Shown piece by piece: positions 18,073-18,956 of a DNA stretch of 64,000 nucleotides (its first letter is position 1; every line of letters begins with the position of its first letter). The position numbers were made by a program, and so were the translations under genes. The notes beneath the pieces were generated by a model that had not been told where the DNA came from, did no database searches, and saw only the letters and a program-made list of their open reading frames with translations. This DNA comes from Escherichia coli (GTDB taxonomy: Bacteria; Pseudomonadota; Gammaproteobacteria; Enterobacterales; Enterobacteriaceae), in NCBI RefSeq assembly GCF_003018115.1, contig NZ_CP027457.1; one strand, 5' to 3'.

Positions 18073-18750
18073 TTATTCCTGTGCCCAGCCAACCCTGTAT
18101 GCCAGGATCTCATCCGCACTGCTCAGCGATTCCAGGTCCTTCTTCATGGTGCGCTGGCGAATGTGGATTTCCATCCCTTTAGTGAACATCGCCTGCTCTG
18201 CCGCTTCACTCAGCGCAATAAGCTCTTCTGCTGTCACCGGCACATCATTGTTTTCCGCATCCGTCCAGAAAAACGCCTCCGGCAGTTTCCCCGCTTTCGC
18301 TGCCGCCACCGATGGCTCAAGACGCGTCTGCGTTGACTTCCCGTAGTCCCATTTCCGGCCATTGTGCTCAAACGTGTAGTTCGCCGCCTCCATCGCATTA
18401 CGCCACGCGTTTATTTCATCGCCCTTCATCCCGCGCGCTTTCTCCGCGGTCAGCAGATCCGTGATTTTCTCCCCGTCAAAGCCCCACCGCCCCGAGATAT
18501 CAGCTTTGCGGTTTTCTTCCGTATCCGCCACCTCCGCAATACTCTGATTCGCTGGCCACAGCGCCTGTACGTCCCTGCTGATATCAGTGATAACCCCTGC
18601 ACTGTTATAAACCACTTTCAGCGTATCCGGCGAAAACAAGGGCAGACACTCATACCAGTCCTGACCATCCTCTGATTTCAGGTACATCGCCCCCGGAACA
18701 TCCGGATTTTCCGGCGTATACCAGATGAAGTTTTTAATATTTACCATCAT
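18073..18750 (-). CDS. tail fiber assembly protein-like (C-terminal ORF)
   Basis: ORF 18073..18795 from MMVNIKNFIWYTPENPD...; sits directly 3' of the tail fiber gene. Confidence 0.5.
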   Translation of the reverse strand: MMVNIKNFIWYTPENPDVPGAMYLKSEDGQDWYECLPLFSPDTLKVVYNSAGVITDISRDVQALWPANQSIAEVADTEENRKADISGRWGFDGEKITDLLTAEKARGMKGDEINAWRNAMEAANYTFEHNGRKWDYGKSTQTRLEPSVAAAKAGKLPEAFFWTDAENNDVPVTAEELIALSEAAEQAMFTKGMEIHIRQRTMKKDLESLSSADEILAYRVGWAQE

Positions 18751-18956
18751 TGCCCCGCATCTCTCCAGATCGGCATATTCTCCGGCCCCACACACCTCTC
18801 CATTCCTGCCGGGGCTGCACTGGCAGAAAAGACCTTATACACGGCACTCGCCACAACAACACAGTCTTCCGGCCAGCTTCCGGCAGCCTCATAAACCGAA
18901 CGAAGCGAGGCCGGATAAAACGCATTATTTGATGGCGAAAAAAAATACTGTTCCAT
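18747..18956 (-). CDS. tail fiber assembly protein N-terminal-like ORF (possible frameshifted 5' part)
   Basis: 69 aa MEQYFFSPSNNAFYPASLRSVYEAAGSWPEDC..., a motif I associate with Tfa N-termini; overlaps next ORF in another frame. Confidence 0.4.
   Translation of the reverse strand: MEQYFFSPSNNAFYPASLRSVYEAAGSWPEDCVVVASAVYKVFSASAAPAGMERCVGPENMPIWRDAGQ

What the first reader, a model, noticed from the sequence alone, without database searches (positions are those of the whole stretch)
18073..18956. Tail fiber assembly region split into two overlapping frames
A 69-aa ORF with a Tfa-like N-terminus overlaps a 225-aa ORF in a different frame by ~50 nt. This could be a frameshifted gene, a programmed shift or two separate chaperone-like genes.
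Basis: seen in the sequence. Interest (0 to 1): 0.3.

Follow-up and report, generated by a model that had tools for sequence, protein, structure and literature searches.

The report
Two separate tail-fibre helper genes
What looked like one broken tail-fibre assembly gene in an E. coli prophage is two intact, separately started genes, a conserved 69-residue "half" chaperone followed by a complete chaperone-like gene, which is ordinary phage mosaicism.

Summary
Both ORFs exist on the minus strand of an E. coli lambdoid prophage, directly after a 570-aa collagen-like tail fibre. The "~50 nt overlap" applies only to the maximal 240-aa ORF from GTG 18795. The 225-aa ORF starts at ATG 18750 and overlaps the 69-aa ORF by 4 nt (ATGA, stop on start).

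It is not a frameshifted tfa.
- The 69-aa ORF is the N-terminal domain of a different Tfa family (phrog_188, Mu U'-like) and ends at the domain boundary.
- Relatives only 72-75% identical in DNA keep the same two ORFs and the same ATGA junction. The small ORF has dN/dS 0.15-0.19. AlphaFold2 gives a compact domain (pLDDT 93).
- In all nine loci checked, this domain follows a fibre with a Gp53-like_C tip.

I found no usable frameshift site.

Best reading: a tip-specific "mini-Tfa" translationally coupled to a DUF4376 chaperone. The role of the mini-Tfa is inferred, not shown. A 15-bp copy-number repeat sits at the junction. Interest is low.

The parts
18966..20678 (-). Side tail fibre gene, 570 aa: phage_tail_N, collagen repeats and a Gp53-like_C tip (residues 491-570).
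   Evidence: ORF. Pfam: PF08400 2.4e-40, PF01391 5.3e-30, PF21882 2.6e-11. RefSeq annotation in near-identical strains.
18957..18965 (-). 9-nt spacer GGAGGGAGA between the fibre stop (TGA) and the small-ORF ATG. It is a strong Shine-Dalgarno-like sequence. The fibre and the small ORF are in the same frame.
   Evidence: Sequence read directly.
18747..18956 (-). 69-aa 'mini-Tfa': a stand-alone N-terminal domain of the Mu U'-like / phrog_188 tail fibre assembly family. It is truncated at the domain boundary, just after the conserved P-x-W motif.
   Evidence: phrog_19350 6.8e-47 and phrog_188 1.6e-15, profile positions 43-106 of 207. Alignment with full-length 143-162-aa Tfas. AF2 pLDDT 93.4. dN/dS 0.15-0.19.
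18938..18945 (-). T8 homopolymer (codons 4-7 of the small ORF). One strain has T9, which destroys the ORF.
18744..18758 (-). One copy of a 15-bp variable-number repeat, GCGGGGCAATGATGG. It contains the small-ORF stop (TGA 18749..18747) and both candidate ATG starts (18750, 18747) of the DUF4376 gene, forming the ATGA overlap. Other strains have 2 copies (the common allele) or 3 copies.
   Evidence: Alignment A1, TRF, junction listing.
18073..18750 (-). 225-aa (224 from the second ATG) chaperone-like protein. N-domain (about residues 1-100, 18750..18451) is like Mu Tfa U. C-domain (about residues 101-225) is DUF4376, helical.
18038..18061 (.). G+C-rich hairpin with a T-run on the + strand (an A-run precedes it on the - strand), 11 nt beyond the DUF4376 stop. 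Probably the end of the late tail operon or of the convergent dinI-like unit.
   Evidence: Consensus scan only.

Best explanation
The region holds two separate, co-transcribed genes at the 3' end of a lambdoid prophage tail operon. It is not one broken gene.

Gene 1 (69 aa, 18956..18747) has its own strong ribosome-binding site 9 nt after the fibre stop. It encodes only the N-terminal domain of a Mu U'-like tail fibre assembly (Tfa) protein. In published Tfa and chaperone structures this is the fibre-binding domain. It lacks the C-terminal helical trimerisation domain.

Gene 2 (225 aa, 18750..18073) starts on the stop codon of gene 1 (ATGA), so it is probably translated by termination-reinitiation coupling. 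It is a complete chaperone-like protein: a Mu U-type N-domain joined to DUF4376, the domain found in the characterised tail-fibre chaperones of Alteromonas phages.

The arrangement arose by cassette exchange. The block [Gp53-like_C fibre tip + mini-Tfa + N-domain of the DUF4376 gene] replaces [a different tip + N-domain] between otherwise about 96%-identical phages. The right-hand junction lies at the N/C domain boundary of the DUF4376 gene.

Inferred, not shown: the mini-Tfa binds the Gp53-like_C tip of the fibre encoded just upstream, as a tip-specific helper or cap. The DUF4376 protein supplies the general chaperone or trimerisation function.
For: Independent genes:
- The same small ORF + DUF4376 ORF with the ATGA junction occurs in L008, L009 and L010 at 72-75% nt identity.
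- DUF4376 homologues are uniformly 220-235 aa and cover 97-100% of the query.
- The DUF4376 gene directly follows the fibre, without a small ORF, in Stx phages phiSTEC1589-Stx1c and 1720a-02 (41-nt gap, own SD) and in Salmonella prophages.

Different families:
- The small ORF matches phrog_188, positions 43-106 of 207, and the N-termini of 143-162-aa Tfas, including the second Tfa gene of the Mu_3F6 invertible region.
- The big ORF matches Mu U.

The small ORF is a real gene:
- dN/dS is 0.15-0.19 with dS 0.7-1.3. This includes L008 versus L010, which share the truncated form. Binomial P is about 1e-5 to 2e-5.
- The AF2 model has pLDDT 93.4 over all 69 residues.
- About 31 of the 150 best cluster representatives are stand-alone proteins of 66-90 aa (plus one 40-aa partial) that end just after the same motif.
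- Short forms were also found in unrelated contexts: L020, L021, L022.

Link to the tip:
- Gp53-like_C was found in 9 of 9 fibres that precede this domain.
- It was found in 0 of 5 fibres followed by a DUF4376 or Mu U-type gene alone.

Cassette exchange:
- L009 versus L025 are 96% identical up to the fibre tip. Near-identity (about 90-100% per 45-nt window) resumes at codon ~91 of the DUF4376 gene.
- The window versus L008 shows the same breakpoint near 18480.

Domain roles come from the literature: the N-domain binds the fibre and the conserved C-domain trimerises (PMC9608196). DUF4376 chaperones are described in PMC10579305.
Against: - No expression or protein data exist for the 69-aa ORF.
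- It lacks the domain thought to carry the chaperone activity.
- It is disrupted in some strains: T9 in L003, an 11-nt deletion in L023. Its C-terminal tail changes with the 15-bp repeat number (69, 70 or 78 aa).
- The DUF4376 gene evidently works without it in other phages.
- The window's DUF4376 N-domain is closer to that of L025, which has a different tip and no small ORF (90% nt), than to L009, which has the same tip type (81%). So the N-domain allele does not track tip type cleanly.
- The ribosome-binding sequence before the DUF4376 ATG is weak in the window. Coupling is inferred from geometry only.
Confidence: 0.8

Rival explanations
1. The 69-aa ORF is a recombination scar. It is the 5' stump of the tfa gene that came in with the Gp53-like_C tip cassette, and it has no protein function. 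At most, its translation delivers ribosomes to the DUF4376 start.
For: - It is truncated exactly where full-length homologues continue for another 75-95 residues.
- It lacks the Caudo_TAP C-domain (no Pfam hit).
- It is disrupted in L003 and L023.
- Its tail varies with the 15-bp repeat number.
- The DUF4376 gene stands alone in L014-L019, L025 and L026.
Against: - dN/dS is 0.15 between L008 and L010, which already share the truncated form, at dS 0.71. That is as constrained as the neighbouring gene.
- The ORF stays open over about 25-28% nt divergence.
- The fold is confident and complete.
- Stand-alone 66-90-aa versions ending at the same point recur in unrelated lineages and contexts.
- Disrupted copies also occur for the fibre gene itself in these prophages, so they are not diagnostic.
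Confidence: 0.17
2. A single tfa gene was broken by a frameshift mutation or a sequencing error near 18740..18800.
For: The two ORFs are adjacent, in different frames, and both have Tfa-like N-termini. The junction contains an indel-prone 15-bp repeat and G-runs.
Against: - Each ORF carries a complete N-domain of a different family. A fusion would give an architecture seen in none of the listed homologues.
- The same arrangement is found in more than 80 E. coli genomes and in diverged lineages.
- The 15-bp repeat changes preserve both frames.
- The window's allele is reproduced in MFDS1006657.
Confidence: 0.02
3. A programmed -1 ribosomal frameshift in the 49-nt overlap fuses the 69-aa ORF to the DUF4376 frame.
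For: The DUF4376 frame is the -1 frame of the small ORF. It stays open 84-117 nt upstream of the ATG in most lineages checked, and 285 nt in L002, which has a 1-nt indel.
Against: - The overlap contains no X_XXY_YYZ heptamer. The only such site (T_TTT_TTT at codons 4-6) lies more than 90 nt upstream of where the DUF4376 frame opens.
- The overlap sequence is not conserved between the window-type and L008-type loci.
- In the common 2-copy allele, the small ORF stops 12 nt before the ATG.
Confidence: 0.01

Closest known systems
Mu U' / phrog_188-type tail fibre assembly proteins. Examples: the 158-aa Tfa next to the second fibre gene in the invertible region of Escherichia virus Mu_3F6, and the 143-aa Tfa of phage HeidiAbel_Bas97.
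   Same: Residues 1-66 of the 69-aa ORF align along the whole N-domain (32-46% identity) with its invariant S, F, Y, P, D, P-G-R and P-W positions. The gene sits directly after a fibre with a Gp53-like_C tip, as in those phages.
   Different: It stops at the domain boundary and lacks the C-terminal ~75-95 residues (the conserved helical Caudo_TAP part). It is followed by a second chaperone-like gene.
Phage Mu tail fibre assembly protein U (TfaMu, PDB 5YVQ chain B) and P2 gpG-type Tfa (phrog_136).
   Different: The C-terminal part is DUF4376 (about 125 residues, helices plus small sheets) instead of the short conserved Tfa C-domain. Pfam Caudo_TAP scores below its cut-off (16.1 versus 22.1 bits).
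DUF4376 tail fibre chaperones of Alteromonas phages V22 (gp27) and A5 (gp9) (PMC10579305, PMC7289586).
   Same: A C-terminal DUF4376 domain in a ~200-240-aa protein encoded immediately after the tail fibre.
   Different: Only the Pfam domain is shared. I made no direct sequence or structure comparison. The hosts and the fibre types differ.
ORF-191 of the P-Eib prophages, and the 192-aa 'Tfa' of phage PhiR5_1.
   Same: The DUF4376 C-domain is 72-79% identical to residues 83-225 of the window protein.
   Different: The N-domain is unrelated, the fibre tip is not Gp53-like_C, and there is no small ORF.

Membership tests
Pfam PF02413 Caudo_TAP (tail fibre assembly protein) | Match to the family HMM above the gathering score | tested here: not met
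   The 69-aa ORF has no hit at E<=0.1. The 225-aa ORF scores 16.1 bits against a cut-off of 22.1.
phrog_188 / Mu U'-like Tfa | N-terminal domain with the conserved S-x5-F, Y, W-P-x-D, P-x-G-x2-R and P-x-W motifs | tested here: met
   phrog_188 E=1.6e-15, profile 43-106 of 207. Invariant columns in alignments A2 and A3.
phrog_188 / Mu U'-like Tfa | C-terminal helical domain (about 75-95 residues), giving a total length of 130-165 aa | tested here: not met
   The ORF ends at residue 69. Full-length relatives continue. No remnant of the missing part was seen in the annotated flanks.
phrog_188 / Mu U'-like Tfa | Encoded directly downstream of its cognate fibre gene | tested here: met
   9-nt gap after the fibre stop. 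The upstream fibre has a Gp53-like_C tip in 9 of 9 loci examined.
TfaMu (Mu U) type chaperone | N-terminal fibre-binding domain fold | tested here: met
TfaMu (Mu U) type chaperone | Conserved short C-terminal Tfa domain | tested here: not met
   Residues 106-212 are DUF4376 (PF14301, 65.5 bits). The homology to 5YVQ_B ends at residue 107.
Pfam PF14301 DUF4376 | HMM match above the gathering score | tested here: met
   65.5 bits against a cut-off of 25, E=6.8e-18.
Tail fibre chaperone (functional class) | Required for fibre trimerisation, or physically binds the fibre tip | not testable with these tools
   Needs co-expression or pull-down experiments. No multimer prediction tool is available here.
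Frameshifted pseudogene | The two ORFs are collinear parts of one intact homologue | tested here: not met
   Each ORF aligns to the N-terminus of a different family. None of the listed homologues of either ORF spans both.
Frameshifted pseudogene | Relaxed selection (dN/dS near 1) | tested here: not met
   dN/dS 0.15-0.19 for the small ORF and 0.11-0.26 for the large ORF.
Programmed -1 ribosomal frameshift | Slippery heptamer in the overlap, conserved among relatives | tested here: not met
   None in the overlap. The overlap sequence is not conserved.
Translationally coupled gene pair | Stop codon overlapping or abutting the next start codon (ATGA / TGATG) | tested here: met
   Window 18750..18747 reads ATGA. 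The same is seen in L008-L010. Actual coupling was not tested.

The most novel reading that the evidence does not exclude
The 69-74-aa stand-alone Tfa N-domain is a functional 'mini-Tfa'. It would be a tip-specific adaptor or cap that binds Gp53-like_C fibre tips and works in trans with a generic DUF4376 chaperone. The two Tfa functions, fibre recognition and trimerisation, would then be split between two translationally coupled proteins. A fibre tip could be swapped together with only its small recognition subunit. The 15-bp repeat at the junction could additionally tune the coupling, or the tail of the small protein, between strains.
Probability: 0.3. Interest if true: 0.4.

Novelty: new variant of a known kind. 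Interest (0 to 1): 0.18.

Why it matters
This mainly matters for annotation. The pair should not be merged or flagged as a frameshifted tfa. The small ORF, now variously labelled 'hypothetical protein', 'phage tail protein' or 'tail fiber assembly protein', is a conserved N-domain-only relative of Tfa proteins. It always accompanies Gp53-like_C fibre tips.

If it proves functional, it would show that the fibre-recognition and trimerisation modules of Tfa chaperones can be encoded as separate proteins. That would be useful when engineering phage or tailocin host range by tip swapping, because one may need to move the tip together with its mini-Tfa. It does not overturn anything known about tail fibre assembly.

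Tried and rejected
- The word-indexed protein search with the 69-aa ORF returned only 2 hits, so it was uninformative. The exhaustive representative search was used instead.
- The IMG/VR scan gave only 3 loci with an identical small-ORF protein.
- NCBIfam gave no hit for either ORF.
- The 232-aa ORF after the short form in L020 is unrelated to the window's DUF4376 protein. So the small ORF is not specifically tied to DUF4376 partners.
- North et al. 2019 (Nat Microbiol) is not in the held library. Domain roles are therefore cited second-hand from PMC9608196 and PMC10579305.
- A literature search for truncated or partial Tfa genes found nothing relevant.
- I considered read-through of the fibre TGA into the in-frame small ORF. 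The in-frame relation is not kept in L020, L022 or Mu_3F6, so I did not pursue it.
- My description of the L025/L026 fibre tip as 'Mu S-like' rests on resemblance by eye only. BLAST matches to Mu S are in the shaft. The tested statement is only that these tips lack Gp53-like_C.

Full report
**Setting**

The window is E. coli chromosome. aspS (16361..14589) and yecD (16638..17237) are followed by the right end of a lambdoid prophage. Its tail genes run on the minus strand in this order:
- gpJ (24900..21163);
- a hok/gef-like ORF;
- a 570-aa side tail fibre (20678..18966);
- the 69-aa ORF (18956..18747);
- a DUF4376 ORF ending at 18073.

A dinI-like gene and a YkgJ fragment lie beyond. A consensus scan found no promoter-like or terminator-like site on the coding strand among the three tail genes. 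A hairpin with a T-run lies just past the DUF4376 stop.

**Check of the observation**

Both ORFs are present. The overlap was misjudged.
- The 225-aa ORF begins at ATG 18750. The small ORF's TGA is 18749..18747. The overlap is therefore ATGA, 4 nt.
- A second in-frame ATG at 18747 is the start used by RefSeq. It gives TGATG, a 1-nt overlap, in strain MFDS1006657, which has the same allele.
- The ~50-nt figure belongs to the maximal 240-aa ORF from GTG 18795.
- The 15 extra residues of that ORF have no counterpart in homologues. These all begin MMVNIKNF, MMHIRNF or MQNIKNF.

**What each ORF is**

*The 69-aa ORF.*
- It matches its own PHROG (phrog_19350, 70 aa, function unknown) and phrog_188, 'tail fiber assembly protein', at profile positions 43-106 of 207.
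- tblastn finds 50 phage records. The match is always to the first ~66 residues of proteins mostly annotated as Tfa.
- I aligned it with full-length relatives: 143 aa in phage Bas97, 162 aa in JK004, and 158 aa in the invertible region of Mu_3F6. The ORF covers the whole N-domain and stops a few residues after the conserved P-x-W motif. The relatives continue into the C-terminal helical part.
- Pfam Caudo_TAP does not match it.
- AlphaFold2 with a 74-sequence alignment gives a compact alpha/beta domain: pLDDT 93.4, pTM 0.74, no disordered tail.

*The 225-aa ORF.*
- It has DUF4376 at residues 106-212 (65.5 bits).
- PHROG profiles for whole proteins of this type align from its residue 1-3.

*Conclusion.* Each ORF starts with a complete N-domain, and the two N-domains belong to different Tfa families. 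They cannot be two halves of one gene.

**Relatives**

*Close relatives.* A 1.2-kb query finds 169 of 5426 complete E. coli genomes. The small ORF alone is in 87 genomes, 43 of them at only 60-80% DNA identity.

*Diverged relatives.* Three diverged loci keep a 74-aa small ORF, a 224-aa DUF4376 ORF and the same ATGATG junction. Here a clear GGAGGAGG precedes the junction. They are:
- L008, a lambdoid prophage;
- L009, behind a different, 685-aa fibre in a DUF6682 context;
- L010, at potB.

*Selection.*
- Nei-Gojobori estimates over the 64 alignable codons of the small ORF give dN/dS 0.15-0.19, with dS 0.7-1.3.
- These values are the same as for the adjacent gene (0.11-0.26).
- L008 and L010 share the truncated form and nearly the same tail, so they diverged after truncation. 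They give dS 0.71 and dN/dS 0.15.
- The excess of synonymous changes has binomial P of about 1e-5 to 2e-5 in each comparison.

*The DUF4376 gene without a small ORF.*
- Its homologues are 220-235 aa in E. coli and Salmonella and cover 97-100% of the query.
- In Salmonella myovirus-type prophages it follows the fibre gene after 11 nt.
- In Stx phages phiSTEC1589-Stx1c and 1720a-02 (89-91% protein identity) it follows the fibre after 41 nt, with its own SD and no small ORF.

**Why the small ORF is there**

*Association with the fibre tip.*
- Every fibre gene that precedes a U'-type N-domain, short or full-length, ends in a Pfam Gp53-like_C domain. These are the window, L008, L009, L010, L011, L013 (second fibre), L020, L021 and L022.
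- Fibres followed by a DUF4376 or Mu U-type gene alone lack this domain. These are L025, L026, L027, L014 and Mu S.

*Cassette exchange.*
- L009 and L025 are 96% identical through the first ~600 codons of the fibre. They then differ completely.
- L009 has the Gp53-like_C tip plus the small ORF. L025 has collagen repeats plus another tip.
- The first 90 codons of the DUF4376 gene are only 56-87% identical. Near-identity (about 90-100% per 45-nt window) returns at codon ~91.
- The window versus L008 shows the same pattern. Identity is 50-75% through the tip, the small ORF and the N-domain, then 90-100% from about 18480 to 18090.
- So the tip, the mini-Tfa and the N-domain of the DUF4376 protein are exchanged as a block. 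The junction lies at the N/C domain boundary.
- This fits the published modular picture: a variable fibre-binding N-domain and a conserved trimerising C-domain (PMC9608196).

*One inconsistency.* The window's DUF4376 N-domain is nearer to that of L025 (90% nt) than to that of L009 (81%). The N-domain allele therefore does not track tip type strictly.

**Generality of the short form**

The exhaustive search of 1.84 billion representatives gave 356 hits (E <= 1e-3).
- Most of the best 150 are 130-165 aa with the domain at the N-terminus.
- About 31 are 66-90 aa, plus one 40-aa partial. The sampled ones end within a few residues of the P-x-W motif.
- Three of these were located on contigs. All follow a Gp53-like_C fibre. 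The genes that follow them are unrelated to one another.

Stand-alone N-domains are therefore a recurrent form, not a peculiarity of this prophage.

**Junction polymorphism**

The junction is a 15-bp tandem repeat, GCGGGGCAA[C/T]GAT[A/G][A/G].
- The window and MFDS1006657 have one copy. This gives a 69-aa product and the ATGA overlap.
- Most strains have two copies. The product is 70 aa, ends QR*, and leaves a 12-nt gap.
- S19-141 has three copies.
- One strain has a 1-nt loss in the G-run, giving a 78-aa product.

Other lesions occur: a T9 instead of T8 run (L003) and an 11-nt deletion between short direct repeats (L023). Each destroys the small ORF in single strains. Some of these may be long-read homopolymer errors. 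The fibre gene itself is frameshifted in two of the same assemblies.

**Frameshifting**

The DUF4376 frame is the -1 frame of the small ORF and is open 84-117 nt upstream of the ATG in most lineages checked. However:
- the overlap has no X_XXY_YYZ site;
- its sequence is not conserved between lineages;
- the only slippery run (T8 at codons 4-6) lies upstream of a stop in that frame.

A programmed shift is not supported.

**Mechanism proposed**

*Shown:*
- There are two genes with independent starts.
- The stop and start are joined.
- Both genes are under purifying selection.
- The domain identities are established.
- The small ORF is associated with Gp53-like_C tips.
- The block is exchanged as a cassette.

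*Inferred:*
- The late transcript is translated fibre, then mini-Tfa (own SD), then DUF4376 protein by termination-reinitiation.
- The mini-Tfa binds the Gp53-like_C tip.
- The DUF4376 protein acts as the chaperone or cap. This rests on the analogy with TfaMu and with the DUF4376 chaperones of Alteromonas phages (PMC10579305).

*Main rival:* the small ORF is a recombination stump kept only for coupling, or for nothing. I give this about 0.17.

**Verdict**

This is an ordinary mosaic tail-fibre and chaperone region, correctly seen but over-interpreted as a split gene. Two points have modest novelty:
- a conserved N-domain-only Tfa relative tied to one fibre-tip type;
- a small copy-number repeat at the gene junction.

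Noticed in passing
window 18744..18758 (- strand); L001 3847..3889: A 15-bp variable-number tandem repeat, GCGGGGCAA[C/T]GAT[A/G][A/G], lies exactly at the gene junction. Strains carry 1, 2 or 3 copies. The copy number changes the small protein's C-terminus and the stop-to-start distance (an overlap versus a 12- or 27-nt gap).
   Followed up: partly
window 18938..18945: T8 (A8 on the + strand) homopolymer in codons 4-7 of the small ORF. Strain 2014C-3097 has T9, which truncates the ORF to 10 aa and leaves it unannotated. This could be real slippage or a long-read sequencing error.
   Followed up: partly
L023 (E. coli JNE120393), about 2600-2625: An 11-nt deletion between GCCGGAAG direct repeats inactivates the small ORF in this strain. 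The DUF4376 gene stays intact.
   Followed up: yes
protein P0123 (999 aa, from the representative library): This one protein contains 8 tandem copies of the same Tfa N-domain (YFFSPS...PPxGK...PxW repeated about every 65-70 residues). It ends in a Tfa-like C-terminal segment. This is an unusual architecture of unknown origin.
   Followed up: no
proteins P0153, P0161, P0162, P0195, P0197 (461-623 aa): The U'-type N-domain sits about 80-140 residues before the C-terminus of fibre-sized proteins. These are either natural fibre-Tfa fusions or merged gene calls.
   Followed up: no
L027 (phage PhiR5_1) 2354..2932; P-Eib phages ORF-191: These proteins share only the DUF4376 C-domain (72-79% identity to residues 83-225) and have an unrelated N-domain. 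This confirms that DUF4376 is a shuffled module with a breakpoint at the same ISGRWGF/EKAR region.
   Followed up: partly
window 20824..20964 (- strand): A 46-aa hok/gef-family toxin ORF lies between gpJ and the tail fibre gene. It is annotated as Hok/Gef in the near-identical strains.
   Followed up: no
window 17240..17960: Prophage end next to yecD: a truncated yecE-like fragment, a dinI-like gene (17555..17803, + strand) and a ~100-nt fragment of a YkgJ-family gene. The same tail-end module sits at dusA, potB, btsS and on a plasmid in other strains.
   Followed up: partly
window 18954..18968: The fibre stop (TGA 18968..18966) and the small-ORF ATG (18956) are in the same frame, 9 nt apart. 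Read-through would add GGR plus the mini-Tfa to the fibre. The frame relation is kept in L008-L010 but not in L020, L022 or Mu_3F6, so it is probably chance.
   Followed up: partly
L002 4081..5736; L024 2567..4201: The collagen-repeat tail fibre gene itself is annotated as frameshifted or split in two otherwise near-identical prophages. This fits either decay or assembly errors in the repeat region.
   Followed up: no
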